From positions 2,508,349 to 2,572,348 of the forward strand of contig OZ244197.1 in assembly GCA_965216785.1 (NCBI GenBank): a stretch of DNA of 64,000 nt. The letters are read 5' to 3'. A program made the position numbers and the translations under genes. Positions 5,958 to 63,745 of this stretch are shown here, in pieces. The notes under the pieces are model-generated. The model ran no database searches and was not told the origin of the DNA. It saw nothing but the letters and a program-made list of their open reading frames with translations. Each line of letters starts with the position of its first letter. Position 1 is the first letter of the stretch. This DNA comes from Thermodesulfobacteriota bacterium. GTDB lineage: Bacteria > Desulfobacterota_D > UBA1144 > Nemesobacterales > UBA2774.

Positions 5958-7175
5958 TCATAAAAGCAAAGCCCCGGCAACACTTGCCAGAACGCACCAA
6001 ATTACAACTATAATCGGGGAAACCCGCTGTGTCATCAAGAGCGCAAAACCAACGGCCGCAATTAATATATCCACCCAGCTCCTGACTGCGCTTGTCCATA
6101 CAGGGTCGTAGAGCGCGGCACCAAGGAGTCCTACCACAGCGGCGTTTAAACCCGCTACTGCTCTTAGCGCGGAGGGACGGCTGACAATTGCCTGCCACAT
6201 AGGAAGCACACCTGCCAGCAAAAGGAAGCCCGGAAGAAATATTGATATAAGCGCTACGCCGGCGCCCACTATACCCCCCTGAGCGCCCGGCAGGCTCGCG
6301 CCTAAATACGAGGCGAGCGTAAACATAGGTCCCGGCACCGCCTGCGCCGCGCCGTATCCGGCCAAAAACTCGCTCTGCGATATCCACCCCGGCGATACAA
6401 CCGTATCTTCGAGCAGGGGCAATACCACATGTCCTCCGCCGAATACCAATGCTCCCGCGCGGTAAAACGCGTTCACTACGGGTACCAGCCCTTCTTTACC
6501 ACCTGAGAGAAATGGTAGTCCGAACAGGAGTAAAAAGAATATTACTATTAAGACTGTACCGAGCGCAGGGCTGTATCTTACACTAAGGCCGTCACCTTCA
6601 ACCGCTTGAGCGCTCTTAACGAAAACCAGGCCGAGCGCTGCCCCGATCAAGACCACTAGCAGCTGTATCCACGCCTGGCCCGTGAGCAGGATGACTATTA
6701 CGGCGAATACTGCAATGCCCGCGCGGGGTACATCCGGACACAGCCGCCTGGCCATGCGCAGCACGCCGTCCGCTACAACAGCAAGGGCAACGAGCTTAAG
6801 ACCGTGGATAGCGGCATCTCCGATTGTCCCCGAGATATTTGGAAATATAAGCGCGAAAGCAAATAATATTAAAGCCGAGGGCAGGGTAAACGCCACAAAC
6901 GCGGCAAGCGCGCCTGCCCAACCCGCTCGAAGTAATCCGAGGCTGAAACCCAACTGGCTGCTCGCGGGCCCGGGAAGGAACTGGCATAGCCCCAGGAGCT
7001 GGGCGTAGTCGCTTTCTTTAACCCATCTGCGCCGCTCCACTATCTCACGGTGGAAGTAGCCCAGGTGCGCTATCGGTCCGCCAAATGAAGTAAGCCCGAG
7101 CTTTAGAAAAGTGCTGAGCACCTCTCCCGCGCTTCCTTTGGTCCGGACACTCTCGTTTGAAATATCGCTGCTCAT
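5958..7175 (-). CDS. chrA: Chromate efflux transporter (long-chain CHR family)
   Basis: FLKLGLTSFGGPIAHLGYF, CQFLPGPASSQ, second repeat VFGGGHVVLPLL and QAVPGPMF. Confidence 0.9.
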   Translation of the reverse strand: MSSDISNESVRTKGSAGEVLSTFLKLGLTSFGGPIAHLGYFHREIVERRRWVKESDYAQLLGLCQFLPGPASSQLGFSLGLLRAGWAGALAAFVAFTLPSALILFAFALIFPNISGTIGDAAIHGLKLVALAVVADGVLRMARRLCPDVPRAGIAVFAVIVILLTGQAWIQLLVVLIGAALGLVFVKSAQAVEGDGLSVRYSPALGTVLIVIFFLLLFGLPFLSGGKEGLVPVVNAFYRAGALVFGGGHVVLPLLEDTVVSPGWISQSEFLAGYGAAQAVPGPMFTLASYLGASLPGAQGGIVGAGVALISIFLPGFLLLAGVLPMWQAIVSRPSALRAVAGLNAAVVGLLGAALYDPVWTSAVRSWVDILIAAVGFALLMTQRVSPIIVVIWCVLASVAGALLL

Positions 7176-7941: not shown

Positions 7942-9186
7942 CTACATAGACTTATTCCCCTCAGCCACAATATCGGGAATGGATGTGAAGGATATCCTCA
8001 TCGGGGCAGATTCCGCAGCTCCGTGCATCGGGGCGTAATAGATGCTGTTCGTACCGTAGCGCTCATTGATGCTGTCAACGGCGATAGCGACTTTGTCCCG
8101 CTTGATCTCTCTTGAAAAGAGCGGGTAGGGGGTCCCCTCGGAGGGAGTGAGGTCATAGAGGGTCATCGATACGCTGAGCGGGGTAAGACCCCGGGGCCTT
8201 TCGGGCCAGACGGAGGAGAAAGCCTCCAGCATTGACTGCGTATCGTTTCTCTTTGTCATTTTTACGGTCTTTTTCCAGCGGAGATCACGGTCAAAGTATC
8301 TAACCTTAACGTCCATGCGGGAGGCGACGTACCCAAGCCTCCTCAGCCTGAACGCGGCCTTGTGTATGAGTCTTACGATCACGGCTCTGGTCTTTTCCTC
8401 TGTCCTCATCTCGGGCGGGAGCACGTGCGAGTGGCCCACGGTCTTTCTGGACGTTTCCGGCTCTGCCAGGTCCTCGCCCCTTATCATGTGCCACCAGCGC
8501 CTGCCTACGACGCTCTGCCATATGTAGGCGAAGTCTCGCTCGGAGAGCTTGAACATCTGCTCTATCGAATGTACGCCGTGCCTCTTTAGCCGGGCGCGCA
8601 TACCCTCACCTATGCCCGGGAGGTCTTGTAAATCAAGCTGATAGAGCTTTTCCGGTAGCTCGTTTTTTGTTATTACGGTAAGGCCGTCGGGCTTTTTCAT
8701 CTCGGCGGCTACTTTGGCCAAAAAGCGGTTGGTCGAGAGCCCGACAGAACAGCGGAGCGACTCGCCTGCTTTTTCGTTAATTGCCCTCTTTACGTCCTTT
8801 GCGAGCCGGAGCGCCTTCTCAAAACCCCTCTGGCTTCCCGTCAGCCTGCAGCACATCTCGTCAATCGACAGCACAGTGTCTACAGGGATAACAGAGTTTA
8901 CGGCCTCTATGATGCTGTGGTGATACTCTACGTAGCGTACGGGCCTTGCCTCGACGATGTTGATCGCGGGGCATAGCTCCTTTGCCAGGCCAACTTTGGT
9001 GCCTGTTTTCACACCGTAGCGCTTGGCCTCGTAGCTTGCAGCTATGCAGCAGGTGGTGTCAGCGTCCACGGGGACAACGGCTGTGGGCTTTCCCCGAAGC
9101 TCGGGGCGCATCTCTTGTTCTACAGAGGCGAAATACGCGTTCATGTCCAGAAACAGCCAGTCAAGAAACTGTTCGTTACGACCCAT
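7942..9186 (-). CDS. dinB: Y-family DNA polymerase (Pol IV/DinB-like)
   Basis: LFLDMNAYFASVEQ, AASYEAKRYGV, SIDE, SVGLSTNRFLAKVA; PLFS near the C-terminus resembles a clamp-binding motif. Confidence 0.88.
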   Translation of the reverse strand: MGRNEQFLDWLFLDMNAYFASVEQEMRPELRGKPTAVVPVDADTTCCIAASYEAKRYGVKTGTKVGLAKELCPAINIVEARPVRYVEYHHSIIEAVNSVIPVDTVLSIDEMCCRLTGSQRGFEKALRLAKDVKRAINEKAGESLRCSVGLSTNRFLAKVAAEMKKPDGLTVITKNELPEKLYQLDLQDLPGIGEGMRARLKRHGVHSIEQMFKLSERDFAYIWQSVVGRRWWHMIRGEDLAEPETSRKTVGHSHVLPPEMRTEEKTRAVIVRLIHKAAFRLRRLGYVASRMDVKVRYFDRDLRWKKTVKMTKRNDTQSMLEAFSSVWPERPRGLTPLSVSMTLYDLTPSEGTPYPLFSREIKRDKVAIAVDSINERYGTNSIYYAPMHGAAESAPMRISFTSIPDIVAEGNKSM

Positions 9187-9284
9187 ATTTTAGATGGTAA
9201 CACGGTTCGAAAAACCTGTCTGGGAGCTTTTTTCGTTTTTGGGAAATTGTAGGAATTAAGGGGGAGGGAGGTTTAAATGCTCTT

Positions 9285-13588: not shown

Positions 13589-14146
13589 ATGAACCACTCA
13601 ATAAGATATAAATTAATGGACTTCCTGTTCCAGGCAATTGCCGTTAGGCAGTACCTGATCTTCTCGGGCTGCTTCTTTGTTCTCACGGCTCTTGTAATGT
13701 TTATACTAAACGCTCAGATTATGCCCGCGGACTGCCCGGGAATGATATCACTTGAGCTAGCCTTCACAAAAGGAGCGCTGGGAGAGATTGTAAACGCGTG
13801 CGGCGCCGGCGGGGTGAGGGCGCACCAGGTAATGATTTGGGTCGATTATATATTCATTATCTCCTACGTCGGATTCCTCGGGAACCTGCTGGGCTCTTTA
13901 GTTAGGCACATCGAGTATGAAAAGGCGCTTCTGTACTTTTCCCTACCCATTTACGCTGGCGTGCTGGACGTCATAGAGAATACGCTTCTGCTGATCGAGC
14001 TTTCAGATACACAGAGCCTCAGCGGCATTCTGATATTTCTGGCTTCTATAGCCGCGCTGGTAAAATTCCTGCTTCTCATAGCGGCTATAGCTATCACGAT
14101 TTACTATCTGTTCGAGCTTATTACAAAGAGGGCGGATTCAAGCTAG
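13589..14146 (+). CDS. Hypothetical membrane protein (about four TM segments)
   Basis: Hydrophobic segments with ISLELAFT, DYIFIISY and AGVLDVIEN. Confidence 0.75.
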   Translation: MNHSIRYKLMDFLFQAIAVRQYLIFSGCFFVLTALVMFILNAQIMPADCPGMISLELAFTKGALGEIVNACGAGGVRAHQVMIWVDYIFIISYVGFLGNLLGSLVRHIEYEKALLYFSLPIYAGVLDVIENTLLLIELSDTQSLSGILIFLASIAALVKFLLLIAAIAITIYYLFELITKRADSS

Positions 14147-37611: not shown

Positions 37612-38300
37612 GTAACCAATCACGAGAGGAAATATTGCATAAAGTACGTAAGGGTCTATCAACCGTACAGGACACTGCGCAGATCCTTCCTGACGACAGA
37701 GATTTCTCTAAAGAGGCTAAGGAATTAGCAGAGAACCTCACTAATCTGCAAGATAAACTCGTCGAGCAATTTACGGCAGAGGTAGAAAATGTAAACACAA
37801 CTGTCTTAAGAGCTCAGAATTCAAAGAAGCTCATACAATCTATTGCTAAGCTCACGAAAGAAAAGCAGGCGAAATCTTTCGCGGTCTGGGAAACCTCTTA
37901 TCTAAAAGAGCTCGGACTGAAAGAGACGCTGAAAAAAGAAGGGTTAAAACTCGTAACCGTGAAGAACAAAAACCGCCTCGCCAAAGCTGACATCGGTATC
38001 ACGGAAATAGACTACGCCATAGCCGATACCGGCACGCTTGTGCTGCTCACGGATAGAAATCAGCCACGCGGGGTGTCACTGCTGCCGCCGATACATTTGG
38101 CAATAGTGCGTCCTGAAAACATAGTCGGCAATATCAGAGAGCTGTTTATTTTGCTGAAAGATAGGATCGATAGATCAGGAGATATTAAAAGCTGTATGAC
38201 GTTTATAACAGGCCCCAGCAGAACCGCAGACATAGAGCTTAACCTCACACTCGGAGTCCACGGCCCGAAAGAGCTGTTTGTCATTATAACAAAATCCTAA
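37608..38300 (+). CDS. lutC: LUD-domain protein LutC/YkgG
   Basis: IADTGTL, SLLPPIH, ITGPSRTADIELNLTLGVHGP. Confidence 0.9.
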   Translation: MSNQSREEILHKVRKGLSTVQDTAQILPDDRDFSKEAKELAENLTNLQDKLVEQFTAEVENVNTTVLRAQNSKKLIQSIAKLTKEKQAKSFAVWETSYLKELGLKETLKKEGLKLVTVKNKNRLAKADIGITEIDYAIADTGTLVLLTDRNQPRGVSLLPPIHLAIVRPENIVGNIRELFILLKDRIDRSGDIKSCMTFITGPSRTADIELNLTLGVHGPKELFVIITKS

Positions 38301-38698: not shown

Positions 38699-38709
38699 TA
38701 TCCGCCTCC

Positions 38710-39686: not shown

Positions 39687-40406
39687 TTACGAGTCTTTCA
39701 TCCAGTCTCTGGCGTCAAATTCTTTGCCATTTTCACCAATCGACTCGTCTGAAGCCAGGTAGACGAAAACGGGGGAAATATCGAGCGGGGTAGGGAGGGT
39801 ATTTGGGTCTTCCTCGGGGTAAGCGCCTGCTCTCATATCGGTCCTGGTACCTCCTGGGTTTACTGAATTAACTCTAACTTTATAAGGCTCCATCTCCTGG
39901 GCGAGTATCTGAGTGAGCGCTTCAACACCGAATTTTGAAGCGGAGTAAGCTCCCCATTCTTTTCTTCCTTCTCTGCCCACAGTAGAGCTTACATTGATGA
40001 TTGAGCTATTTTCAGACTTTATTAATAAAGGGAGTAGGGCTTTTGTGACGAAAAACTGTGCGTTAAGGTTAATATGTATTACTTCTTCCCATAAATCCTC
40101 TGGATAATCCATTATCTTAGCTTTGATTCCTAATATACTGGCATTATTAACCAATATATCCAGTTTGCCCCATTTTTCTTCAATTTCAGCGGCCAGGCGC
40201 TTTACATCATCCTTATTGGTTATATCAGCGCTGACAAAGCTGATATCTCCGTACTCAGACAGCTCCTCATGAGCGGCCTGAAGCGAGTCCTCATTGCGTC
40301 CGCAAATAATTACCTCGGCTCCTTGCCTTAAATAAGCCTCGGCAATGCCTTTACCAATTCCTTTACTACCACCTGTAATCAGTGCTTTTTTGTCTTTGAG
40401 TTTCAT
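39687..40406 (-). CDS. SDR-family oxidoreductase (YciK-like)
   Basis: TGGSKGIG, NNAS, YSASK, NPGGTRTDMRAGAYP. Confidence 0.9.
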   Translation of the reverse strand: MKLKDKKALITGGSKGIGKGIAEAYLRQGAEVIICGRNEDSLQAAHEELSEYGDISFVSADITNKDDVKRLAAEIEEKWGKLDILVNNASILGIKAKIMDYPEDLWEEVIHINLNAQFFVTKALLPLLIKSENSSIINVSSTVGREGRKEWGAYSASKFGVEALTQILAQEMEPYKVRVNSVNPGGTRTDMRAGAYPEEDPNTLPTPLDISPVFVYLASDESIGENGKEFDARDWMKDS

Positions 40407-42328: not shown

Positions 42329-42419
42329 GAGATATCCGCCTTGTATATATTGTAACTTTGATAATATCCTATCTTACTTTTAGGCACAAATTCAGCATAT
42401 TTTACATGATACCGACATA

Positions 42420-42447
42420 AAGTCCGATAAGGTATATTATGTAAACT
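42420..42447 (+). other. dif site (XerC/XerD recombination site): AAGTCCGATAA-GGTATA-TTATGTAAACT
   Basis: 11-6-11 layout; right arm identical to the B. subtilis dif arm TTATGTAAACT; spacer differs by one base from E. coli TGTATA; intergenic. Confidence 0.85.
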
Positions 42448-43195: not shown

Positions 43196-44269
43196 TTATT
43201 GACCCTTGGTTTTTATTATTGTTACGTGGCCCATTTTACGCCCGGCGCGGGCTTCTGATTTTCCGTAGAGATGTATACACGCGCCGTCTTTTCTATAGTA
43301 CTTCTTAATTTTCTCGACCTCTGATCCTATGAGGTTTATCATCACAGCGTCAGAGTGGCGCTCGGACGAGCCTACAGGGAGACCGCACACAGTGCGTACG
43401 TGCTGCCCGAACTGTGAGACGGCGCAGGCGTCTATGGTCAAGTGGCCCGAGTTATGGGTGCGGGGAGCAATCTCGTTTGCCAGAATGCGCCCGTCCTTTG
43501 TGACGAACATCTCTAGCGCAAGCACTCCTACAAGTCTCACTTTCCGAGCCAGCAGCAGCGCCTTGTCCCTGGCCTGCTTTGCCAAATCCTCGGGTATGCC
43601 CGCCGGCAAGGTACTTTGCGAGAGAATGTGATTTTTATGATCGTTCAACATAGGGCCGTAAATAGCTGTCTGCCGCTTTACATCCCTTGCAACGATGACT
43701 GATATCTCGCAGTCAAAATCAATGGGCTCTTCCGCTATAAGTTCATTTGAGCCGAGCTTCTTCCAGCTCTTTTTCGGTGAGTCCCCTGCCCTGTGAACAA
43801 GCTGCCCTTTGCCATCATAACCGAACCGGGTGGTTTTTAAAATAACATCACCGAGTCCCATATCACGGACCGCGGCACCTATATCTTCTGCTTTCCTTAC
43901 AGGCGCCCATCTCGCCGTGGGGATGCCTATATCGTTTAAAAACTGTTTCTCTTTAATCCTGTTCTGTGATATTTCAAGAAGTTTATCGTCGGGGTAGACT
44001 GGTTTAATATCTTGAATGTAGCGGACGGTTTCATACGGAATGTTCTCGAACTCGTAAGAGACCACATCCACGCTCTCGGCAAATGCCCTTAGTTTTCTTT
44101 TATTGTCGTAAGCTCCTACGAAAGTTCTGTCCGCTACCTGGCCCGCCGGGCTGTCTTGCTCAGGACAGTATATATGCACCTTGATACCGAGCTCTGCCGC
44201 CGCCAATGCGCTCATCCGCCCGAGCTGCCCTCCCCCTAATATCCCCAGCGTTTTAGTTTCGAAACTCAT
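43196..44269 (-). CDS. purK: N5-CAIR synthetase
   Basis: [44 protein letters not shown]. Confidence 0.95.
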
Positions 44270-44970: not shown

Positions 44971-45900
44971 ATGCTAAGAACCAAGCATAAAGATAATATC
45001 TACTTCATAACCCAGCCTGATCATGCGGCGGTGTCCGGGTATTTCGCTGCGCACTGGGGAAACGACGAGTTCACGCGTCCCGGGTATTACGCTCCCAGCA
45101 AAGACCCTGAGCAACTCCGTGCTGAAACTGTACTGGGCATTGCCGAGCACGATAACGGCTGGTGGGAATGGGAAGCGACTCTCGGAGAGGATGCAGAGGA
45201 CGGCCTGCCCAAGGGCCTTACAACGGTACTCAAGAACCAGGAAGAAGGGATGAACAGATGGAGGCTCGGGATACCGAGGCTGAGTGAGAAACATCCCTAC
45301 GCTAGCCTCCTTATCAGCTACCACGCCTATTGGCTCTACGCTCACTCAAGTAGAGCCGAGACGAACGAAGCGTTCATTCACCCCCTGTTCTGGAAAGGCA
45401 CAGACCTCTATGCTGAGGACTCAAAACCCGGATTAGAAGGAGAGGCCCTTGAGAACGCGCTTAAATTTGTAGAGGAAGTAAGAGGCTTACAAGAAAGTCT
45501 GAAATCACAGATAAATGCGAACGAAAATAAAAACGACTGGCTGAGCGACGGCAACTTACTGCCGCACGCAAGACTGATACAACTGCTGGACGGGCTTTCG
45601 CTCTCAATATGCTCGAACCTCATCCCGGCCAGTGATGGAGAATCAAAGGGCCTTGGGCAGGACGAATTTAACCTACTGAACGTGCCGAGGAAGAGCTGGG
45701 ACGACCGTGTGGCAATGAAAGTATATCCCAAGGGAGAGAGGAATATCGGGCTTGACCCCTACCCCTTCGATTTAGACCCTCTCAGAGTAAGCGTTCCTAC
45801 CAGGATTGTAGAAGGCCCGGCAGATAAACCCTTGTGCCTCTACCCCTTCTGGCATTCCATACCCCTGCAGCTGATCGAGTATGAATTCAGCTCTGGTTGA
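44971..45900 (+). CDS. DUF3891-family protein
   Basis: ITQPDHAAVSG, AEHDNGW, LLISYH, LDGLSL. Confidence 0.75.
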   Translation: MLRTKHKDNIYFITQPDHAAVSGYFAAHWGNDEFTRPGYYAPSKDPEQLRAETVLGIAEHDNGWWEWEATLGEDAEDGLPKGLTTVLKNQEEGMNRWRLGIPRLSEKHPYASLLISYHAYWLYAHSSRAETNEAFIHPLFWKGTDLYAEDSKPGLEGEALENALKFVEEVRGLQESLKSQINANENKNDWLSDGNLLPHARLIQLLDGLSLSICSNLIPASDGESKGLGQDEFNLLNVPRKSWDDRVAMKVYPKGERNIGLDPYPFDLDPLRVSVPTRIVEGPADKPLCLYPFWHSIPLQLIEYEFSSG

Positions 45901-46380: not shown

Positions 46381-46499
46381 AGTTTTAGTCACCCTCCCCT
46401 ACCGAAAGAAAGTTTTCTCTTTGATACTGTAAAAGATTATTGTACTTACCCCCATGTATTGAGACTTCCATAATTTTAGGTTTATAATAGATACCCATT

Positions 46500-47291
46500 A
46501 TGGATATGGGAATAAAAGACAAAGTTGCCATAGTAGCCGCATCGAGCAAAGGCCTGGGTAAGGCTGTAGCTATGGGGCTTGCACACGAGGGCGTGAAAGT
46601 GACAATCTGCGCCCGTGGTGAAGATGAGCTTAAAAAGACTGCCAGTGAGATCGAATCCGAGACCGGAGCTCAAGTGCTGGCTGTACCATGCGATGTTTCC
46701 AAATCAGAGGAAATAGAAAACGTAGTCGCAGAGACAGTTAATAAATTTGGGACTGTTGACATAATGGTGAATAACGCGGGAGGCCCTCCTGTAGGGTTGT
46801 TCGAGGAGTTTTCCCTCGATGATTGGCACAAGGCAGTCGAGCTTAACCTCTTTAGCACCATCACATTCTCTAAGCTAGTCATCCCTTATATGAAAAAGAG
46901 CAACTGGGGCAGGATTATTAATATGACCTCCTACACCGTAAAGGAGCCTGTGGACGGTCTTATACTGTCAAACACAGTAAGAGCTGGAATAACAGGACTC
47001 ACCAAGACATTATCTAACGAGCTTGGGCCTCATAACATTCTTGTGAATAACGTAAGCCCGGGAAGGATCCATACGGACAGAATCACACAGCTTGCCCAGG
47101 AGAGAGCTAAACGAAGCGGAGCAAGCTTTGAAGAGGCGCTTAAGAGCATGGACGACGGTATACCGCTTGGAAGAGTCGGGCAGCCCCGCGAGTTCGCAAA
47201 CCTGGTAGTTTTTCTTGCCTCAGAGCGCGCGAGCTACATTACAGGCGATACGATACTAATCGACGGCGGACTAAGTAAAGGAATCATGTAG
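46500..47291 (+). CDS. SDR-family oxidoreductase
   Basis: AASSKGLG, VNNAGGPP, SNTVRAG, PGRIHTDR. Confidence 0.9.
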   Translation: MDMGIKDKVAIVAASSKGLGKAVAMGLAHEGVKVTICARGEDELKKTASEIESETGAQVLAVPCDVSKSEEIENVVAETVNKFGTVDIMVNNAGGPPVGLFEEFSLDDWHKAVELNLFSTITFSKLVIPYMKKSNWGRIINMTSYTVKEPVDGLILSNTVRAGITGLTKTLSNELGPHNILVNNVSPGRIHTDRITQLAQERAKRSGASFEEALKSMDDGIPLGRVGQPREFANLVVFLASERASYITGDTILIDGGLSKGIM

Positions 47292-47298
47292 CCAGGGA

Positions 47299-47799
47299 AT
47301 GAAACTCTACCCTCCACAAAAAAACATGTCTGTACTCTATCTGGCTTTGGCATGTCTTCTTTATTATTTCATCGCAACAGGGTTGCTGTCATCCAATACA
47401 TATATATACAATACGGAATATACATAGTATGTAGAGTTATATAAAGATGGCCGCTCTATAATGCATGTTATAGATACATCCTCTGTAAAGGATATATTCG
47501 ATAGATATAATATTGAAATAAAGAACGGCGACAAAATTATTATAGACGAAGACGGCAGCATTAAAACCGGGAGGATAAGCGGCGTCAAAAGCTTATCTCT
47601 AGGTGTCCCAATCGGGATTAACTCCGCCCCGGCTAAGGACCTTACTGCTCTTCCCGGAATCGGGAGCAAAACAGCAGAGCGCATTATCACCTACAGGGAA
47701 AACTCAGGGGGCTTTAAAAGCCTTGAAGAGATAGATAACGTTGTGGGAATCGGCGAAAAAACTCTGGAGTCTCTAAAGGGCAAGATAAGCCTTGACTAG
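47299..47799 (+). pseudogene. comEA: ComEA-like HhH DNA-binding protein with an in-frame TAG after the membrane anchor
   Basis: ATG at 47299, hydrophobic VLYLALACLLYYFIATGLL, TAG at 47425-47427, then in-frame INSAPAKDLTALPGIGSKTAERII...VVGIGEK. Confidence 0.7.
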
Positions 47800-50513
47800 C
47801 GTCTCAGCAGAAAATCTATTTCGGTCTCTGTTTCGTTCTTCGGAAGACCGTAATCACTCGGCACATATCCGGGGTCCGTGCCAAACTCCCCGCTGTCAAT
47901 CATCACTCTGTCTCTTAAGGAATCCAGCACGTTTTCCCTAAGCGAATCGATGCTGTAGGGCACATTTCCGTATGGAGTACTTACGGTTTTTATGCGCGAA
48001 GGCTTTTTGAATTTGCCCCCGGGGTATTTCTCTAAAGCCTCCTCCATAAAGTCTATCCATATCGGGAGCGCGGCCCTCGAGCCCGCTTCCTTTTTACCGA
48101 TTGGTTTATGGTCGTCACGCCCTACCCAAACCGCTGTTGTGATACGAGGGCTGAACCCCACAAACCACGCGTCCGTGTATTCGTTCGTAGTCCCCGTCTT
48201 TCCGCCCAATGGGGCCTTTGAAGTGAGCCTTGCGGCCCTTCTGCCCGTGCCTTCTTTAATTACAGCTTGAAGTAGATCTGACATTATGTACGCGGTCTCG
48301 GGGCTTAGAGTCTGTTTTTCTTCCCCGCCCGACAAGAAGTCCACTGAGCCAGAGCGGACCAGCTCGAGAAACTCAGCTGGGTTAAAAAACTTATATTCAC
48401 TTGAGTCCGAGGCAAAACCTTCTGAATCCGAAAGCTCATTTTCCTCTAAAAATTCTGAATCAAACTTAGCCTGATCGGGGTCCCTGCCCTTCTTCTTCGC
48501 GAGCGCTCTGATTATATTTAGTCTTTTGGCCTCGCGGTCCGCCTTTAAAGATTCTTCTTTGGATACAAACTGCCCGCCCGTGTTATCCTCGACAATTCTC
48601 CCGTTACGGTCATATATCCTGAGGATGAATACCGGCTCTACAAGCTTCCCTTCGTTCGCAAACACGTTATATGCCTTAACCATTTCCATCACTTTTACGT
48701 CGGCGCCGCCGAGCGCAAGTGAGGGATAGGGGTTGAACTTGGTCTCAAAACCGAAGTTCTTCGCATAGCTAACCACATACTTGGGATCAATATCGAGCAT
48801 CAGCCTGATGGTCGCGAGGTTTCTGGACTTGGCAAGAGCCGTTCTTAAAACTATTGCACCCAGGTAGTTACCGTCGTAGTTCTGCGGCGCCCAGTCCTTG
48901 ATGACTATAGGCATATCATACAGAACAGATGTCTCGGTGTAGCCTTTGTCAATAGCCGCAGAGTAAACAATCGGTTTAAACGCCGAGCCCGGCTGCCTTA
49001 CAGCCTGCACTGTCCTATTAAATTGTGAGGACCTGTAATCAAACCCTCCGACAAGCGCTCTAATATTGCCGCCAGTGTCCATAGCGACCAGAGCGGCTTG
49101 TGTCTCAGGGGCATAATTTAATACGTACTCATATTCTCCGCCTGAGGATTCCATCGCTTTAATTTTTATGACATCGCCTTTTTTAAGGTTTTTAGTTACG
49201 AGGCTTAATCCTCTGTAGCCGTCTGCAGGCACGTACTTTTCTGTGTAAGGAGAGCTTAGTCCGGGAACCGGCTTACCGAGCTTGGGGCTTACGGCATAGC
49301 GAAGCTCCCCCTTTATATCTCCAATCGCAATCTCTGCCGTATAGAGAACCGCTGCTTCATCTTGAGATTTATCGTCTTTTATTTCAGATTGCTCGTTTTT
49401 TGTTATTGAGGTCACTACAGCTTTGTACTCATCACCCGCTTTAATATCCACTATGTTCTGGGCGCTTAAGTATTTTTTAACCTGGGTGTCGTTTGAAAGG
49501 TTTTTGACCACGACTCTGCGGCCTCGTCTCGACTCTAAGTCCACTAGCCCTCTCTTAACAGCCCACTGCGCTTCAAGGTTCAGGTCTACGTCAAGAGTAG
49601 TAAATACGGTGTAACCCCCGTTTATGAATTCCTCTGTGCCGACAGTGTTTTCAAGATAGCGTCTTACGTGCTCCACAAAATAAGGAGCGAGCTTGGAGTT
49701 CACTCTCAAGCGGGGCTTAATGTCTATTTCAAAACTCTCAGCCTCAACTCTTTCGTCCTCTGTAATAAACCCTCCCTCCATCATTCTCCTGAGAACCGTT
49801 TTTTGCCTCTCAAGCGCGCGCTCAGGGTGGTTACGAGGTGAATAGTACTCGGGTTTTTGCGGCAGTCCGGCAAGCAGCGCGGCCTCCGCAAGATTTATAT
49901 CCTTGGCCGATTTACCGAAATAATTTTGGCTTGCAACCTCAATCCCATGCGCTCCGTCAGCCAGATAAATGTGATTTAGATATAGAAATAGAATCTCTTC
50001 CTTTGAAAGGTTATTCTCGATCCTGTGGGCAAGTATCGCCTCTTTTATCTTTCTTGTAAGAGTGCGCTCGGGGGTCAGGATAATATTCTTGATCACCTGC
50101 TGGGTTATCGTGCTTGCGCCTCTTACCCAATCGCCCTCCTGAATGTTCTCAAACATAGCGGCGATAATACTCTTTACGTCGACCCCTTCGTGCTCGAAAA
50201 AGCGGCGGTCCTCAACAGCGATAAAAGCATTTCTCACATGAGTGGGGATATTTTCATACCGAATGATTTTCCTTCTTTCTGCGGCGAATTCTCCAATTAA
50301 TGTCCCGTCCGCTGAGTACACTTCGCTCTTTAGCCGGGGCTTATAACCTGTCACGACAGTGAAATCGGGCAGGTCGCGAGTATAGTACTTATATCCCGCG
50401 TACAGGGCCAGAATCCCAGCTACCAGGAGTATAAAAAAAGCGGCGATAAAGAACATTAACGCCTTGCTTTTTCTGGGTTTTGATTTAAATTTTACTTTCT
50501 TTTTCTTAGCCAT
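47796..50513 (-). CDS. mrcA: Penicillin-binding protein 1A (class A PBP)
   Basis: AVEDRRFFEHEGVD, GASTITQQ, RKIKE; transpeptidase RQPGSAFKP, SRN, GKTGT; likely ATG at 50513 (track start 50567). Confidence 0.92.
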   Translation of the reverse strand: MAKKKKVKFKSKPRKSKALMFFIAAFFILLVAGILALYAGYKYYTRDLPDFTVVTGYKPRLKSEVYSADGTLIGEFAAERRKIIRYENIPTHVRNAFIAVEDRRFFEHEGVDVKSIIAAMFENIQEGDWVRGASTITQQVIKNIILTPERTLTRKIKEAILAHRIENNLSKEEILFLYLNHIYLADGAHGIEVASQNYFGKSAKDINLAEAALLAGLPQKPEYYSPRNHPERALERQKTVLRRMMEGGFITEDERVEAESFEIDIKPRLRVNSKLAPYFVEHVRRYLENTVGTEEFINGGYTVFTTLDVDLNLEAQWAVKRGLVDLESRRGRRVVVKNLSNDTQVKKYLSAQNIVDIKAGDEYKAVVTSITKNEQSEIKDDKSQDEAAVLYTAEIAIGDIKGELRYAVSPKLGKPVPGLSSPYTEKYVPADGYRGLSLVTKNLKKGDVIKIKAMESSGGEYEYVLNYAPETQAALVAMDTGGNIRALVGGFDYRSSQFNRTVQAVRQPGSAFKPIVYSAAIDKGYTETSVLYDMPIVIKDWAPQNYDGNYLGAIVLRTALAKSRNLATIRLMLDIDPKYVVSYAKNFGFETKFNPYPSLALGGADVKVMEMVKAYNVFANEGKLVEPVFILRIYDRNGRIVEDNTGGQFVSKEESLKADREAKRLNIIRALAKKKGRDPDQAKFDSEFLEENELSDSEGFASDSSEYKFFNPAEFLELVRSGSVDFLSGGEEKQTLSPETAYIMSDLLQAVIKEGTGRRAARLTSKAPLGGKTGTTNEYTDAWFVGFSPRITTAVWVGRDDHKPIGKKEAGSRAALPIWIDFMEEALEKYPGGKFKKPSRIKTVSTPYGNVPYSIDSLRENVLDSLRDRVMIDSGEFGTDPGYVPSDYGLPKNETETEIDFLLRR

Positions 50514-50625
50514 TAGATTCGACGCTGTCCGCTCAGAGGCAATTGAGTGGGAATGAAAATTAAACATAATTATACCTGAGATAAAGCGGTTTTATAAAGC
50601 TTTAAATTCGCCGGGTTTAAATTTC

Positions 50626-52163: not shown

Positions 52164-54059
52164 GTGAACAGCCAATTATTTAAAAATTTAGTACTATGGT
52201 TGGTAATTTTTGTAGCAATAATAGCTTTATACCAACTTGTGCATACCCCTAGAGTCGCTACTCTCGAAATCCCTTATAGCGAGTTTTTAGAATATGTGGA
52301 TAAGGGTGATGTAAAGGAGCTCGAATTTAAGGGCGAGCAAATAACGGGTGAGTTTTCAAGCCCTGTTGGAGAGAGTTCTGATACGGGCTTTAAAACAGTC
52401 GGTCCCGCAAGCGAAGACCTCCTGAAAACCCTTGAAGAAAAAGGTGTTTCATTTAAATTCGATGCCAATAAAGAAGGCTCGCTTACTCATATCCTTCTCA
52501 ACTGGGCTCCGCTGATTCTTCTTATAGTCATTATGGTTTTCTTTATGCGTCAGCTGCAGGCGGGCGGCACGAAGGCTATGTCTTTTGGTAAAAACAAAGC
52601 CAGAATGCTTTCTGAAAATCAAAACAAGATCACATTTAAAGACGTTGCAGGCGTAGACGAGGCGAAAGAGGAAGTCCAGGAGATTGTGGAGTTCCTGAAG
52701 AGCCCTAAGAAATTTACCAAGATCGGAGGCCGCATACCAAAGGGTATTCTGCTTGTAGGTCCTCCTGGGACGGGTAAAACCCTTCTGGCAAAAGCCATAG
52801 CCGGTGAGGCGGGTGTGCCGTTCTTTATTATTAGCGGCAGCGACTTTGTTGAAATGTTTGTAGGAGTAGGTGCGTCAAGGGTCAGGGACCTTTTCGTTCA
52901 GGCTAAGCGCCACGCTCCCTGCATTATCTTCGTCGACGAGCTTGACGCCGTAGGCAGGCACAGGGGTGCTGGGCTCGGCGGAGGACACGACGAGAGAGAG
53001 CAGACGCTAAACCAGCTGCTTGTTGAGATGGACGGTTTTGAATCCAACGAAGGGATTATTGTGATGGCGGCGACCAACCGCCCCGACGTGCTTGACCCCG
53101 CTCTTCTAAGGCCGGGCCGGTTTGACCGGCAGGTTGTAGTTCCGAGACCCGACGTAAGAGGAAGAGAAGAGATTCTGAAAGTGCATTCTAAAAACACTCC
53201 GCTTGATAGCGATGTCGAGCTTTCCGTAATCGCGCGGTCCACTCCGGGCTTTTCAGGCGCGGACCTTGAGAACCTCGTGAACGAATCGGCCCTTCATGCG
53301 GCAAGGCAAAGCAGAGCAAAAATCTCGATGCAGGACTTTGAGTTCGCAAAAGACAAAGTCATTATGGGTGTTGAGAGAAAGAGCATGATAATAAGCGACT
53401 CGGAAAGAAAAATCACCGCATACCACGAAGCGGGCCATGCGCTTGTAGCAAAGCTGACGCCGGGAACAGACCCGATTCACAAGGTCACCATTATACCGAG
53501 AGGAATGGCGCTTGGAGTAACACAGCAGCTGCCTATTGAAGACAAATACACGCTTTCCAGAACGAGCCTTAACGGGACAATCAAAGTCCTGCTCGGAGGA
53601 AGAGCCGCCGAGGAAATAGTATTTGGCGAGCGCACGAGCGGCGCAGGGAACGACCTTGACCGTGTTACGGATATCGCGCGCCGAATGGTGTGTGAATGGG
53701 GAATGAGTGAAAAAGTTGGTCCCGTTACGTTTGGCAAAGGTGAAGACCAGATTTTCTTGGGCAAAGAGATATCAAAACCCAAAGACTATAGCGAAGAGAC
53801 AGCTATTGAAATTGATAGCGAGATACGCTCTATTGTCACGGACAATTATTCAAAAGCGAAATCTACTCTTGAAGATAATATTGACTTACTTCACAAGCTT
53901 GCCGAGATGCTCCTCGATAAGGAAGTCATAGACGGAAAAGAGCTCGATGAGCTCGTTAGTAGCCACAAGCCCCAAAAAGATTATCCCTCCCCTTGGCAAA
54001 ACCCGACCACAGAAGGGTCGGTAGCCTTTAGGAGCAGTAATAATTCTGAAGACGCTTGA
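52164..54059 (+). CDS. ftsH: ATP-dependent zinc metalloprotease FtsH
   Basis: [41 protein letters not shown]. Confidence 0.97.
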
Positions 54060-54179: not shown

Positions 54180-55100
54180 ATGTTGCGTGAGAATGCGGCT
54201 AACTCAAAAATCGGTCTGGAAGATGAAACGGGAACCTCTGTTTTAAATACCCATCTGTTCAAGTGCAGGGACACCGAGTTTGACCTGAGTTTAAGGACTC
54301 ACATAATGGGAGTGCTGAATACGACGCCCGACTCCTTTTATGACGGAGGGAATTACTCGCAGATAGATGCAGCTTTAAAACACGTGGAAAAAATGATAGA
54401 GGAAGGCGCGGATATTATAGACATAGGCGGTGAATCCACCCGCCCGGGCTCCCTACCCGTCTCAGCCAAAGAAGAGCTGGAAAGGGTGATACCGGTCATA
54501 AAGGAAATAAGAAAACGTTTTGACATACCGCTATCCATTGATACAACGAAATCAGAGGTCGCCCTCAGGGCGCTGGAGGAAGGCGTGAAGATTGTTAACG
54601 ACATAAGCGCTCTCACTTTTGACCCGGAAATCGCAGACGCAGCATCTAAATACGGAGCAGGACTTGTTCTGAGCCACACTACTTCGAGACCCCGCGATAT
54701 GCAGAGCAAAACCAGTTACGGCTCTCTTATCGAAGACATTAAGCTCCCTCTTCGAATTTCAGTAAAACTGGCTGAGCACAGAGGCGTGCGTCCGCGCTCT
54801 ATTGTTGTAGACCCAGGATTTGGTTTTGGAAAAACAGTAGAGCAGAATTTAGCTATTCTTAAGCACTTAAACTCTTTCCTAGAACTCGGCAAACCTATAT
54901 TAATCGGGACTTCAAACAAGTCATTTATCGGCAAAGTCCTTGATGCGGAGGCAGGAGATAGAACCGAAGGCACGGCGGCCACGGTAGCGGTCGGTATACT
55001 AAATGGGGCTTCCATAATACGAGTACATGAAACGGGGTATATGAAACGCGTATCCCAAATGATTGATGCAATACTTAATGTTAGTCACGAAACTTATTGA
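54180..55100 (+). CDS. folP: Dihydropteroate synthase
   Basis: MGVLNTTPDSFYDGG, IDIGGESTRPG, DPGFGFGK, SNKSF, IRVHE. Confidence 0.94.
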   Translation: MLRENAANSKIGLEDETGTSVLNTHLFKCRDTEFDLSLRTHIMGVLNTTPDSFYDGGNYSQIDAALKHVEKMIEEGADIIDIGGESTRPGSLPVSAKEELERVIPVIKEIRKRFDIPLSIDTTKSEVALRALEEGVKIVNDISALTFDPEIADAASKYGAGLVLSHTTSRPRDMQSKTSYGSLIEDIKLPLRISVKLAEHRGVRPRSIVVDPGFGFGKTVEQNLAILKHLNSFLELGKPILIGTSNKSFIGKVLDAEAGDRTEGTAATVAVGILNGASIIRVHETGYMKRVSQMIDAILNVSHETY

Positions 55101-59860: not shown

Positions 59861-61114
59861 ATGCCTCAAAACCCTATACTATATCTAAACTCTCTCGGCC
59901 TTCATAAAGTAAAACCCGGCCTGGAAAGAATAAAGAAGATACTTGGAGCCCTCAATAACCCTGAGCAAAAGGTTCCTGGAATCATTGTCGCCGGCACTAA
60001 CGGTAAAGGCTCGGTTTCAGCCTCAATTTCCGCAGTACTATGCGAGGCAGGTTATAAAACGGGTCTCTACACCTCCCCTCATTTGATAAATCTTAATGAG
60101 AGAATCAGAATTAATGGAGAAAAGATAAAGGAAAAAGAGCTCACTGATTATATCGAACGGGTTAGAAGCGCGTCTGAAAAGAGCGCTGTAGAGCCGAGTT
60201 CTTTTGAGGTGCTCACTGCCTGCGCATATCTATATTTTGCCGATAACGACAATGATTTTAATATCCTTGAAGTAGGCTTGGGTGGAAGGTGGGACGCGAC
60301 GAACGTCATTAAACCTCTAGTGTCCGTAATCACCAATATTTCTGCTGACCATACCGAGTACCTGGGGGACAGTCTTTCGGAAATAGCCGCTGAAAAGGCT
60401 TGTATTATTAAACCCGCCACACCTGTAGTAACCGGAGCACGGGATGAAGCACTCGAAGTAGTAAAGAGCGAAGCAATTAAACACTCTTGCGAGCTATACA
60501 TATCCGGCAAAGACTTTAAACTGACCCACACCGCAGACAAGGGGCTATGTTATATGGGTAATATATGGAATATAGGCAATATTACATCCACCTTAAAAGG
60601 ATTGTACCAATATGAGAATCTGGCTCTCGCCGTAAAGGTCTTGGAGAAGCTCGCAGAGTCGGGACAAATAAAACTTGAAGTACAAACATTAAGAGAAGGT
60701 CTCTCCAATATCAACTGGGAGGGAAGGTTTCAGATCGTTAGAGATACCCCTCCCCTTATCCTGGACAGCGCTCACAATTCTGGCGCCGCAAAGGCTCTCA
60801 TCTCTTCGCTTACAGACAATTATCCGGGTGTTAAGTTTACGTTTCTGATTGCTATGCTTGAAGATAAAGACCACGGCGCGTTTATAAATGAAATAGCTCA
60901 GAATGCAGCTAAGATAATTATTACAAAAGCGCCGTCCGAAAGGAGTGCGGATACAAAGGCTTTATATAATTTTGCCAAAGAGCATACTAATAATGTTGTG
61001 ATTATAGAGGATTACGAAGAGGCATACAGTGGTTTAATCAAAAACGGCGCACCCGGATGCGTCACAGGATCGCTTTACTTAATTGGTGCGCTCCTGGATT
61101 TTACTTCTGAATAG
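59861..61114 (+). CDS. folC: Folylpolyglutamate synthase/dihydrofolate synthase
   Basis: VAGTNGKGS, YTSPHL, LEVGLGGRWDATN, WEGRFQ, LDSAHN, GSLYLIG. Confidence 0.94.
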   Translation: MPQNPILYLNSLGLHKVKPGLERIKKILGALNNPEQKVPGIIVAGTNGKGSVSASISAVLCEAGYKTGLYTSPHLINLNERIRINGEKIKEKELTDYIERVRSASEKSAVEPSSFEVLTACAYLYFADNDNDFNILEVGLGGRWDATNVIKPLVSVITNISADHTEYLGDSLSEIAAEKACIIKPATPVVTGARDEALEVVKSEAIKHSCELYISGKDFKLTHTADKGLCYMGNIWNIGNITSTLKGLYQYENLALAVKVLEKLAESGQIKLEVQTLREGLSNINWEGRFQIVRDTPPLILDSAHNSGAAKALISSLTDNYPGVKFTFLIAMLEDKDHGAFINEIAQNAAKIIITKAPSERSADTKALYNFAKEHTNNVVIIEDYEEAYSGLIKNGAPGCVTGSLYLIGALLDFTSE

Positions 61115-61216: not shown

Positions 61217-62254
61217 ATGCCCAAAGTTGGAATAGTGCTGGACAAGCTCTATGTAGATCACGATAACGGCATGGGCCATCCCGAGACCCATGAGAGGATT
61301 CTTGCCATCGTGGACATGCTCAATTTTACTAAGCTCATAGACGAAGTCGTGAAGATCACGCCGAGAGACGCGACCAAAGAAGAAATCACACTAGTACATA
61401 CGGCAGAGCATTTTGATAAGATGGCTTCCACGAAAGGTAAACCCAAAGTGTTTTTGGACGCAGACACCTCCACTTGCCCGGTTTCTTTTGACGCTGCCGT
61501 AAGAGCCTCAGGCGGCATGCTATCCGCAATTGATAGCATTCTGGAAGGAGAAGTAGACAGAGCTATGCCGCTCGTAAGACCCCCCGGGCATCACGCAGAG
61601 GCCGACAGGGCTATGGGGTTTTGTCTATTTAACCACGTCGCCGTGGGCGCCGCATACCTAACACGCATAAAAGGGCTCAGCCGCGTGCTCGTAGTAGACT
61701 GGGATTTACACCATGGAAACGGAACGCAGCATATGTTTTATGACGACCCCTCTGTGCTTTACTTCTCCACACACCAGCACCCCTTTTACCCCGGCACCGG
61801 CAGCCTCAACGAAAAAGGAAGCGGAGAGGGAGAAGGCTATAATATTAATGTCCCCCTGCCCCCGGGTATGGGAGACTCAGAGTACATTAAGATATTCACC
61901 GAGATATTAGCTCCTGTAGTAAAGCAATTTAAACCTGAGTTTATTCTGGTTTCTGCAGGTTTCGACACATTCCTGGAAGACCCTCTAGGAGGCATGAAAG
62001 TCACCCCCGAAGGGTTCGCCAAGCAGACGAGATTCCTAACAGACCTTGCCGATAAGTACTGCCGAGGCAAGGTTGTGTTCATTTTGGAAGGCGGCTACAA
62101 CCTAGACGGCCTGTGGATATCGAGCAAAGAAGTAGTCGAAGAGCTGCTTGACAAAAAGAAAAGTGATTACAGTGTACTAGAAGACACTGCTCAAGTAGAT
62201 TCTATTATAGAAAATGTAAAAAAAGAGTACTCAAAATACTGGGATTTTAGCTGA
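61217..62254 (+). CDS. Histone deacetylase-family (AcuC/AphA-like) protein
   Basis: HPETHER, RPPGHHA, GFCLFN, DWDLHHGNGTQ, SAGFD, LEGGY. Confidence 0.92.
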   Translation: MPKVGIVLDKLYVDHDNGMGHPETHERILAIVDMLNFTKLIDEVVKITPRDATKEEITLVHTAEHFDKMASTKGKPKVFLDADTSTCPVSFDAAVRASGGMLSAIDSILEGEVDRAMPLVRPPGHHAEADRAMGFCLFNHVAVGAAYLTRIKGLSRVLVVDWDLHHGNGTQHMFYDDPSVLYFSTHQHPFYPGTGSLNEKGSGEGEGYNINVPLPPGMGDSEYIKIFTEILAPVVKQFKPEFILVSAGFDTFLEDPLGGMKVTPEGFAKQTRFLTDLADKYCRGKVVFILEGGYNLDGLWISSKEVVEELLDKKKSDYSVLEDTAQVDSIIENVKKEYSKYWDFS

Positions 62255-63088: not shown

Positions 63089-63745
63089 TCAGTCGTAACT
63101 ATACAAATACTTAACTCCATACTTATTATGAATGATTTCATTCCGAAATGATATAACGCTCTCAGAAAACGCCTTCTCCGTCATGTAGCGCCCCCTTCCC
63201 TTCACCCTAGTTTCAGCATCGAGCGCAATCGTGCTCCTTTCCTCTTCAGGAAGAGCATTAAAGAATTTCTCCAAGCAATCAGCCTCAATAGACAGAATCC
63301 TGCCTAGGACATTCTCTTCGGGGGCTCCTTCCAAGTCCAAAACCCTGTTTCTCAGCATTATATAATAATCACGCACATCTGTCCTTTTCTCCTCGTTTAT
63401 ATAGCCGCCTAGCTTTTGTGCGGCTTCGCCGATAATCCCCGTGTGTTCCTTATTTGATTCCTCAGATATTTTCCTCTCTTTTAAGGGGCTGTACTCCTCT
63501 ATACTCTCCTCGATAAATGAAGAACACTGCTTCATGCTTCTTACTCTATTCTTCCCATCGTCATCATCTGCATTTAGCTTCTCAAATGCCCTACTTATTC
63601 CCCGGAGCACAACCTCTTTAGGTATTTGTCTGTCCCGGAGCTTCGATATCACCGTGTAGTCCTCAGAAGAGAGCATAATCCCCTCCCCCGCTAGCGAGAG
63701 AAAATACTTCTCCACATCCCTAATATACCCGCCGCTATCAGTCAT
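63089..63745 (-). CDS. Hypothetical protein with a DnaD-like N-terminal helical domain
   Basis: VEKYF...MLSSEDYTVISKLRDRQIPKEVVLRGISRAF resembles the DnaD/DnaB_2 pattern; 2 nt upstream of the ATPase. Confidence 0.55.
   Translation of the reverse strand: MTDSGGYIRDVEKYFLSLAGEGIMLSSEDYTVISKLRDRQIPKEVVLRGISRAFEKLNADDDDGKNRVRSMKQCSSFIEESIEEYSPLKERKISEESNKEHTGIIGEAAQKLGGYINEEKRTDVRDYYIMLRNRVLDLEGAPEENVLGRILSIEADCLEKFFNALPEEERSTIALDAETRVKGRGRYMTEKAFSESVISFRNEIIHNKYGVKYLYSYD

What the first reader, a model, noticed from the sequence alone, without database searches (positions are those of the whole stretch)
42420..42447. Chromosomal dif site with a strand switch of KOPS-like octamers: the window likely spans the replication terminus
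Seen: AAGTCCGATAA-GGTATA-TTATGTAAACT has the 11-6-11 dif layout. A by-eye scan for GGGNAGGG found + strand copies left of it at 6879, 8123, 9261, 29562, 30247, 36389, 37349 and 39788, with one opposite copy at 13941. Right of it I found only - strand copies (CCCTNCCC) at 43784, 46392, 48482, 53985, 54451, 60748, 61854, 63193 and 63681. The counts may be incomplete. Established: E. coli FtsK reads GGGNAGGG pointing toward dif, and the right arm here equals the B. subtilis dif arm. Inference: this lineage combines a Bacillus-like XerD arm with the E. coli-type KOPS, and this is the true chromosomal dif rather than a mobile pdif.
Basis: partly seen in the sequence, partly recalled or inferred. 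Interest (0 to 1): 0.75.

Follow-up and report, generated by a model that had tools for sequence, protein, structure and literature searches.

The report
Ordinary chromosomal dif site with KOPS switch
This is a normal chromosome-dimer resolution site (dif), sitting exactly where the FtsK-guiding GGGNAGGG motifs change direction; the feature is real, but it is a textbook one that many bacterial phyla share in the same form.

Summary
AAGTCCGATAA-GGTATA-TTATGTAAACT is at 42420-42447 and occurs once in the window. GGGNAGGG occurs 21 times against 7.6 expected. Left of the site there are 8 copies on + and 1 on -. Among about 97,600 one-N octamers it is the motif most polarised about the site. The polarity does not follow gene strand.

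The core TCCGATAA-N6-TTATGTAAACT is found in at least 120 genomes of many phyla, nearly always once per contig. In 119 of those loci GGGNAGGG points at it 177:23 and GC skew flips there. Four related contigs keep the site in the same gene neighbourhood (HIT-lutABC on one side in all four; SDR-PBP1A on the other in two). Only the 28 bp align between the genes.

Two parts of the interpretation fail. The window is not from a Bacillus-like lineage: it is a diderm chromosome, and its nearest sampled relatives are Thermodesulfobacteriota MAGs. The "Bacillus" arm plus "E. coli" KOPS pairing is the common state, not a lineage peculiarity. The predicted GC-skew inflection is also absent from the window. 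Xer and FtsK genes and genome-wide uniqueness could not be tested. Verdict: a genuine but ordinary dif/KOPS junction of low interest.

The parts
42420..42447 (+). 28-bp dif site, AAGTCCGATAA-GGTATA-TTATGTAAACT (11-6-11)
   Evidence: unique in the window and intergenic; the same 19-base core is present in at least 120 genomes; it is the only conserved block in the intergenic alignment with four relatives.
42420..42430 (+). Left arm AAGTCCGATAA, the presumed XerC-binding half
   Evidence: Assigned by analogy with E. coli dif (own knowledge). Positions 4-11 were fixed by the search pattern in 119 sites, and the outer 3 positions vary.
42431..42436 (+). Central region GGTATA, the presumed strand-exchange spacer
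   Evidence: columns 12-17 vary among the 119 sites, with a preference for TATA at columns 14-17. L041, L064 and L077 carry the identical GGTATA.
42437..42447 (+). Right arm TTATGTAAACT, the presumed XerD-binding half
   Evidence: Position 42443 is T instead of A in the 99%-identical contigs L001 and L002.
6879..6886 (+). GGGCAGGG, points toward dif
8123..8130 (+). GGGTAGGG, points toward dif
9261..9268 (+). GGGGAGGG, points toward dif
13941..13948 (-). GGGTAGGG, the only copy pointing away from dif
29562..29569 (+). GGGCAGGG, points toward dif
30247..30254 (+). GGGAAGGG, points toward dif
36389..36396 (+). GGGCAGGG, points toward dif
37349..37356 (+). GGGTAGGG, points toward dif
39788..39795 (+). 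GGGTAGGG, the last + copy before dif
43784..43791 (-). GGGCAGGG, the first - copy after dif, points toward dif
44228..44235 (-).
45757..45764 (-).
46392..46399 (-). GGGGAGGG, points toward dif
48120..48127 (-).
48482..48489 (-). GGGCAGGG, points toward dif
53985..53992 (-). GGGGAGGG, points toward dif, inside a + strand gene (ftsH)
54451..54458 (-). GGGTAGGG, points toward dif, inside a + strand gene (folP)
60748..60755 (-). GGGGAGGG, points toward dif
61854..61861 (-). GGGCAGGG, points toward dif
63193..63200 (-). GGGAAGGG, points toward dif
63681..63688 (-). GGGGAGGG, points toward dif
33845..38300 (.). Left synteny anchor: HIT-family gene, a 357-aa ORF and lutABC. The same genes lie beside dif in relatives.
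   Evidence: Pfam. (tblastn): lutB is 74% identical in L028 and 64-66% in L014, L077 and L113, and in each of them it lies next to the dif core.
46500..50567 (.). Right synteny anchor: SDR, an HhH protein and PBP1A. The SDR and PBP1A lie on the other side of dif in L014 and L077.
   Evidence: Pfam. SDR 57% and PBP1A 47-48% identical in L014 and L077, across dif from lutC.

Best explanation
The 28-bp site at 42420-42447 is the chromosome's XerCD-type dif site, where chromosome dimers are resolved.

Inferred mechanism, by analogy with E. coli (PMC2800217, PMC3130261, PMC3384302):
- One tyrosine recombinase (XerC-like) binds the left arm AAGTCCGATAA and another (XerD-like) binds the right arm TTATGTAAACT.
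- Strand exchange takes place across the 6-bp centre GGTATA.
- At cell division the septal FtsK translocase loads on GGGNAGGG octamers and reads them 5'->3' as 'this way to dif'. It pumps DNA from either arm until it meets XerCD-dif, and there it switches on recombination.

Shown here: the site, its uniqueness in the window, the abrupt reversal of a strongly over-represented GGGNAGGG at the site, its conservation in position in relatives, and the same arrangement around the same core in 119 other genomes.

Inferred: which proteins bind, that FtsK of this organism reads GGGNAGGG, and that replication forks also meet here.
For: - Site and uniqueness.
- GGGNAGGG: 21 copies against 7.6 expected, 20 of 21 pointing at the site. 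The switch interval 39788-43784 contains the site.
- Rank: first of about 97,630 one-N octamers and first of 56 same-composition arrangements.
- Not a gene-strand effect: 9 copies lie on the coding strand, 10 on the opposite strand and 2 between genes. On the right arm most genes are on + while every copy is on -.
- Not a base-skew effect: raw GC skew is -0.021 on the left and -0.010 on the right. With the KOPS copies masked, G-rich oligomers are 31:29 on the left arm while GGGNAGGG there is 8:1.
- B. subtilis SRS GAGAAGGG (1:2), L. lactis GAAGAAG (9:5) and E. coli Chi (1:4) show no clear polarity.
- Comparative: the core TCCGATAA-N6-TTATGTAAACT is in at least 120 genome contigs, once each except L027. 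Around 119 of them GGGNAGGG points inward 177:23. GC skew flips there, +0.031 left and -0.051 right; among the 39 loci with at least 2 kb on both sides the paired p is 1.4e-6.
- Synteny: HIT-lutABC lies beside dif in L028, L014, L077 and L113, with IleRS beyond it in L014. SDR and PBP1A lie on the other side of dif in L014 and L077. Only the 28 bp align in the intergenic region.
- In the 2,085,004-bp chromosome of L077 the site lies at about 1,043,330, which is 50.0% of the record.
- Chromosomal context: IleRS, PDH complex, PBP1A, FtsH, FolP, GlmM, PdxJ, PurEK, Mla.
- The sequence is identical in an independent assembly of the same organism.
Against: - No GC-skew inflection at the site within the window. 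The gene-strand-corrected side term for GC3 is +0.025 +/- 0.015. Fourfold-site skew is negative on both sides, -0.055 left and -0.075 right.
- No xerC, xerD or ftsK in the 64 kb.
- Uniqueness and polarity were tested over 64 kb only.
- Nothing biochemical was tested.
Confidence: 0.9

Rival explanations
1. The site is a genuine dif and KOPS junction, but replication forks do not usually meet here. The compositional switch point would lie outside the window, so segregation polarity and replication polarity are uncoupled locally.
For: Fourfold-degenerate GC skew of the + strand is negative on both sides of dif, -0.055 and -0.075. AT skew is positive on both sides. The regression intercepts are -0.039 +/- 0.009 (all positions) and -0.074 +/- 0.015 (GC3), with no significant side term. 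With KOPS copies masked, G-rich oligomers are unskewed on the left (31:29) but skewed on the right (5:19). Such uncoupling is documented in a P. aeruginosa strain with unequal arms (PMC6199493, title and abstract seen).
Against: The test is weak. It rests on 61 genes. The + strand genes are mostly highly expressed housekeeping operons (PDH, IleRS, ftsH-folP-glmM), so codon preference could mimic an offset. The side terms that exist go in the expected direction (Fisher p = 0.014). In 119 other genomes with the same core the skew does flip at the site.
Confidence: 0.15
2. The site is a dif-like attachment or resolution site of a mobile element (an IMEX att site or a plasmid pdif module), not the chromosomal dif.
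For: The genes next to it are of unknown function and lie in a low-GC stretch (0.38-0.42 at 38-44 kb). One nearby gene is strain-variable.
Against: There is no second dif-like site in 64 kb. No integrase, phage or plasmid genes are nearby. The position is syntenic in relatives that share only 55-75% protein identity. The window is full of housekeeping genes. No exact match was found in viral contigs, and plasmid matches of the 261-bp region were at chance level.
Confidence: 0.03
3. The GGGNAGGG polarity is a by-product of general G-richness of leading strands or of coding bias. It is not a motif read by FtsK.
For: The 55 other arrangements of six G, one A and one N are pooled 72% toward dif in the window and 70% in the 119 loci. 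G-rich words in general are therefore somewhat polar.
Against: GGGNAGGG is the extreme of its class: 95% in the window and 89% in the 119 loci. It is 2.8-fold over-represented. It is independent of gene strand. It is 8:1 on the left arm, where masked G-rich oligomers are 31:29. Single-base GC skew in the window is about zero.
Confidence: 0.06

Closest known systems
E. coli XerCD/dif with FtsK and KOPS (GGGNAGGG)
   Same: The 11-6-11 layout with inner ATAA/TTAT, 19/28 identity to E. coli dif (5/6 in the centre, 9/11 in the XerD arm; E. coli sequence from memory, compared). The same octamer consensus converges on the site. Skew is 0.95 here against 0.91 genome-wide and 1.0 in the dif region of E. 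coli (PMC3384302, Table 1, read).
   Different: The left arm matches at only 5/11. The motif is about four times denser here, 1 per 3 kb against 1 per 12.6 kb (PMC3384302). The proteins were not seen. No GC-skew flip is visible in the window.
Bacillus subtilis dif (CodV/RipX) with SpoIIIE/SftA and SRS (GAGAAGGG)
   Same: The right arm is identical at 11/11 and overall identity is 22/28 (B. subtilis sequence from memory).
   Different: The SRS GAGAAGGG is not polar here (1:2). The organism is a diderm with no Firmicute-like gene-strand bias. The shared arm is pan-bacterial, not Bacillus-specific (PMC3025954).
Predicted dif sites of many phyla (Kono et al. 2011, PMC3025954) and AIMS (Hendrickson and Lawrence; PMC5993296)
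   Same: A single conserved 28-bp site at the replichore junction. Strand-biased octamers become denser and more biased toward it. The Firmicutes-type profile fits Acidobacteria, Nitrospirae, Chlorobi and others. This site has the same core as at least 120 such genomes.
   Different: Nothing of substance. The outer three bases of the left arm (AAG) and the centre GGTATA are one combination among many.
pdif modules and IMEX elements that exploit Xer
   Same: They use the same kind of 28-bp XerC/XerD site.
   Different: Those come as pairs or multiples flanking cargo, or on plasmids or phages. Here there is one site in a syntenic housekeeping context.

Membership tests
XerCD-type chromosomal dif site | 28 bp made of two 11-bp partly palindromic arms around a 6-bp centre, similar to established dif sites | tested here: met
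   22/28 to B. subtilis and 19/28 to E. coli (reference sequences from memory); an identical 19-base core is present in at least 120 genomes.
XerCD-type chromosomal dif site | One copy per chromosome | tested here: inconclusive
   Unique within 64 kb. The rest of the genome is not available. In other genomes the core was found once per contig in 119 of 120 loci.
XerCD-type chromosomal dif site | Lies at the junction of replichore polarity, shown by convergence of skewed octamers | tested here: met
   20:1, and the switch interval 39788-43784 contains the site.
XerCD-type chromosomal dif site | Lies at or near the GC-skew shift point | tested here: not met
   no sign change at the site within the window. 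The test is underpowered and confounded by gene content. Genome-wide cumulative skew is not computable here.
XerCD-type chromosomal dif site | Conserved in position and sequence among relatives while the flanks diverge | tested here: met
   synteny with L028, L014, L077 and L113, and only the 28 bp align in the intergenic region. L001 and L002 differ by one base in the right arm.
XerCD-type chromosomal dif site | Cognate XerC and XerD recombinases encoded in the genome, which bind and recombine the site | not testable with these tools
   No tyrosine recombinase in the window.
KOPS (FtsK-orienting polar sequences) | Octamer strongly biased to the leading strand, pointing to dif from both arms | tested here: met
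KOPS (FtsK-orienting polar sequences) | Over-represented relative to composition | tested here: met
   21 against 7.61 +/- 2.95, and 0 of 100 shuffles reached 21.
KOPS (FtsK-orienting polar sequences) | Bias exceeds what base skew and gene orientation explain | tested here: met
KOPS (FtsK-orienting polar sequences) | Recognised by the gamma domain of the organism's FtsK | not testable with these tools
   ftsK is not in the window.
pdif module / IMEX att site | Two or more dif-like sites bracketing cargo, or location on a plasmid or phage | tested here: not met
   Housekeeping context.

The most novel reading that the evidence does not exclude
In this genome the junction of segregation polarity (dif plus GGGNAGGG) may not coincide with the junction of replication-linked base composition. 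Fourfold-site GC and AT skews have the same sign on both sides of dif across the whole 64 kb. Forks may therefore usually meet tens of kb or more to the left of dif, or this lineage may have almost no replicative skew while still keeping a dense, sharply polar KOPS system.
Probability: 0.12. Interest if true: 0.35.

Novelty: new member of a known kind. Interest (0 to 1): 0.13.

Why it matters
Knowing the dif site fixes the terminus end of both chromosome arms for this organism. That helps genome orientation, replichore-aware analyses and growth-rate estimates from coverage. It adds no new biology: the site, the motif and their arrangement are the standard ones. The one useful correction is that the 'Bacillus-type' dif arm and the 'E. 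coli-type' KOPS are not properties of those two lineages. They occur together across many phyla: 119 genomes here, 177:23.

Tried and rejected
- GC skew as a terminus marker. I tried the raw profile, a regression with gene strand, fourfold-degenerate sites and intergenic DNA, and left/right totals. None shows a flip at dif in the window. I treat this as uninformative rather than contrary, because the same measure does flip at the same core in 119 other genomes.
- Other polar motifs. B. subtilis SRS, L. lactis GAAGAAG and E. coli Chi show no clear polarity.
- Rfam and tRNA scans of the window: nothing found, so no rRNA or tRNA to place the organism.
- Naming the organism. Run labels are coded, and the look-up by protein returned only two metagenome contigs. 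Placement rests on Pfam content and on the nearest dif-bearing loci.
- Mobile-element reading. An exact scan of viral contigs gave 0 hits. A blastn search against plasmids gave only chance-level hits that did not cover dif usefully.
- NCBIfam on ten ORFs without a Pfam match, including the two beside dif: no family for nine of them.
- L027, the one genome contig with two direct copies of the core 3.46 kb apart. I looked for an integrated Xer-exploiting element, but the genes between the copies are metabolic (UbiE-type methyltransferase, flavoprotein, HD hydrolase, pilin-like), not phage-like. Left unexplained.

Full report
**1. The observation**

The sequence AAGTCCGATAA-GGTATA-TTATGTAAACT is at 42420-42447 on the + strand.
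- It is unique in the window even with three mismatches allowed, and none is expected by chance.
- When both strands are scored for arm matches, the runner-up sites reach only 15 of 22 positions.
- It lies between two - strand ORFs, 41651-42328 and 42577-43011.

Three more - strand copies lie right of the site, at 44228, 45757 and 48120.
- The total is 21 copies against 7.61 +/- 2.95 in dinucleotide-preserving shuffles. No shuffle out of 100 reached 21.
- Left of the site there are 8 copies on + and 1 on -. Right of it there are 0 on + and 12 on -.
- The only partition with a single misfit puts the switch between 39788 and 43784, which contains the site.

**2. Is the polarity special?**

I scored every octamer with one N (about 97,630 motifs) for polarity about 42420-42447, with no prior motif in mind. 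GGGNAGGG came first at 20:1, p = 1e-5. Among the 56 arrangements of six G, one A and one N it is also the most polar.

It is not a coding-strand effect.
- Nine copies lie on the coding strand, ten on the opposite strand and two between genes.
- On the right arm most genes are on + while every copy is on -.

It is not a base-skew effect.
- Overall + strand GC skew is -0.021 left of the site and -0.010 right of it.
- With the KOPS copies masked, other G-rich oligomers are 31:29 on the left arm, where GGGNAGGG is 8:1.

B. subtilis SRS GAGAAGGG (1:2), L. lactis GAAGAAG (9:5) and E. coli Chi (1:4) show no clear polarity.

**3. GC skew**

- The sliding profile follows gene strand. In a weighted regression the gene-strand term is 0.099 +/- 0.008.
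- The side-of-dif term is 0.002 +/- 0.008 for all positions and +0.025 +/- 0.015 for third codon positions.
- At fourfold-degenerate sites, averaging + and - genes to cancel coding effects gives -0.055 on the left and -0.075 on the right. There is no sign change.

The sample is 61 genes. The + strand genes are mostly highly expressed housekeeping operons, so codon preference may produce the offset. I therefore count this as 'not met in the window, underpowered'. I keep as a minor rival the possibility that forks meet elsewhere.

**4. What kind of DNA this is**

Pfam annotation shows a chromosomal housekeeping region:
- MlaE/F/D, a Y-family polymerase, an AceE-type PDH complex with E2 and E3, and lipoate ligase.
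- IleRS, lutABC, purE and purK, PBP1A.
- ftsH-folP-cdaA-ybbR-glmM, pdxJ, fur, a FolC-type ligase and a deacetylase.

The Mla system and pdxJ point to a diderm. Gene-strand bias is weak, with 19 + and 21 - genes on the left and 13 + and 8 - on the right. That is unlike Bacillus. No tyrosine recombinase or FtsK is encoded in the window. No tRNA or Rfam family is present.

**5. Relatives**

They come from Acidobacteriota, Thermodesulfobacteriota and other 'delta' groups, Myxococcota, Ignavibacteria, Fibrobacter, Bacteroidota, Nitrospira and many Bacillota. There is one copy per contig except in L027.

I oriented 119 of these loci on the site.
- GGGNAGGG points at the site 177:23 overall. By group: delta 76:8, Acidobacteriota 38:10, Bacillota 18:3, Myxococcota 6:0, Ignavibacteria 5:0, and the nearest relative L028 5:0.
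- Mean + strand GC skew is +0.031 on the left and -0.051 on the right. Among the 39 loci with at least 2 kb on both sides the paired p is 1.4e-6.

So this core is a true terminus dif across phyla, and the octamer goes with it across phyla.

Four loci are related to the window itself: L028 (an unclassified MAG) and the Thermodesulfobacteriota MAGs L014, L077 and L113.
- LutB is 74% identical in L028 and 64-66% in the other three. HIT-lutABC lies beside dif in all four, with IleRS beyond it in L014.
- In L014 and L077 the SDR and PBP1A genes lie on the other side of dif, as in the window.
- In the window an extra 4 kb sits on each side between these anchors and dif.
- In the intergenic alignment only the 28 bp are conserved.
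- In the 2,085,004-bp chromosome record of L077 the site is at about 1,043,330, or 50.0% of the record. This is suggestive only, because I could not check where that record starts.

Two metagenome contigs 99% identical to the window (L001, L002) carry the site with one change, A to T at 42443, giving TTATGTTAACT. No other base differs for 170 bp to the left of the site or more than 100 bp to its right. E. coli dif also has T at that position (own knowledge).

An independent assembly of the same organism reproduces the window across the site without differences.

**6. Mechanism**

By analogy with E. coli (PMC2800217, PMC3130261, PMC2680272, PMC3384302):
- XerC-like and XerD-like recombinases bind the left and right arms and exchange strands across GGTATA.
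- FtsK at the septum loads on GGGNAGGG in one orientation and translocates toward the point where the motif reverses.
- It stops at XerCD-dif and activates XerD.

The anatomy is shown here. The protein assignments are inferred.

**7. Comparison and novelty**

Nolivos et al. 2012 (PMC3384302) give a GGGNAGGG skew of 0.91 genome-wide and 1.0 near dif in E. coli, at 1 per 12.6 kb. Here the skew is 0.95 at 1 per 3 kb, so the motif is denser but of the same kind.

They also report that GGGCAGGG behaves as an architecture-imparting sequence in most Proteobacteria. Kono et al. 2011 (PMC3025954) predicted dif in 641 strains of 16 phyla. They noted that the Firmicutes-type profile is the one that transfers to Acidobacteria, Nitrospirae, Chlorobi and others.

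The lineage is not Bacillus-like in any case. This is a new instance of a known kind.

**8. Rivals**

- A mobile att or pdif site is very unlikely. There is one site, syntenic and in a housekeeping context, with no integrase and no viral or plasmid counterpart.
- A composition artefact for the octamer is unlikely.
- A fork-meeting point displaced from dif remains possible at about 0.15. It needs the whole chromosome or marker-frequency data.

**9. Verdict**

It is wrong on the lineage-specific combination and unproven on the GC-skew terminus. The finding is an ordinary feature of low interest.

Noticed in passing
window 42443 (position 24 of dif); L001 about 9886, L002 about 3008: Metagenome contigs 99% identical to the window carry T instead of A in the right (XerD) arm, giving TTATGTTAACT. 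No other base differs for 170 bp to the left of the site or more than 100 bp to its right. E. coli dif also has T at this position.
   Followed up: partly
window 38621-39558: A 938-bp segment is replaced by 15 bp in a bioreactor-metagenome strain (run X5, contig L001). It holds most of a 305-aa Cys-rich ORF with a signal or lipoprotein-like N-terminus (38710-39627, -) that has no Pfam or NCBIfam match. It is a strain-variable gene 3 kb from dif.
   Followed up: partly
window 42577-43011 (-): The ORF right next to dif encodes a 144-aa protein with Lys/Arg/Thr/Ala-rich tails (…KKTTKRAAKR), reminiscent of histone-H1-like or phasin-like basic proteins. It has no family match.
   Followed up: partly
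window 41651-42328 (-); L028 1233-1622: The 225-aa secreted protein of unknown function on the other side of dif is also the dif-proximal gene in the nearest relative L028 (59% identity over 130 aa). It has no Pfam or NCBIfam match.
   Followed up: partly
window 1-64000: Fourfold-site GC skew of the + strand is negative and AT skew positive on both sides of dif (GC4 -0.055 and -0.075). With KOPS copies masked, G-rich oligomers are unskewed on the left (31:29) and skewed on the right (5:19). Either the genome's replicative skew is very weak, or its switch point is not at dif.
   Followed up: partly
window 9285-11367: This is a low-GC patch (0.36-0.40 against 0.47 overall) with two ORFs of 336 and 354 aa that have no family match. 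It is probably acquired DNA. The only wrongly oriented GGGNAGGG (13941) lies 2.6 kb to its right.
   Followed up: no
window 62247-63998 (-): An IstB/DnaC-like AAA+ ATPase (279 aa; every NCBIfam match is below its family cut-off) follows a 218-aa ORF of unknown function and a truncated ORF at the window edge. This may be a helicase-loader pair of a mobile or prophage replication module. The GGGNAGGG copies inside it are nevertheless correctly oriented.
   Followed up: partly
L027 2998-3022 and 6455-6479 (both -): This is the only one of 120 genome contigs with two direct copies of the dif core, 3.46 kb apart, with different centres (TTAATT and TTAAAG). The genes between them are metabolic (UbiE-type methyltransferase, flavoprotein, HD hydrolase, pilin-like), not phage-like. 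A duplicated dif bracketing ordinary genes is unexplained.
   Followed up: partly
window 38255-38284, 39213-39242, 42268-42297, 46053-46082: In the isolate run X1, Logan unitigs break at these four points. At 38255 there is a low-depth alternative path (depth 19 against 343). This suggests minor variants or short repeats in the culture around the strain-variable gene.
   Followed up: no
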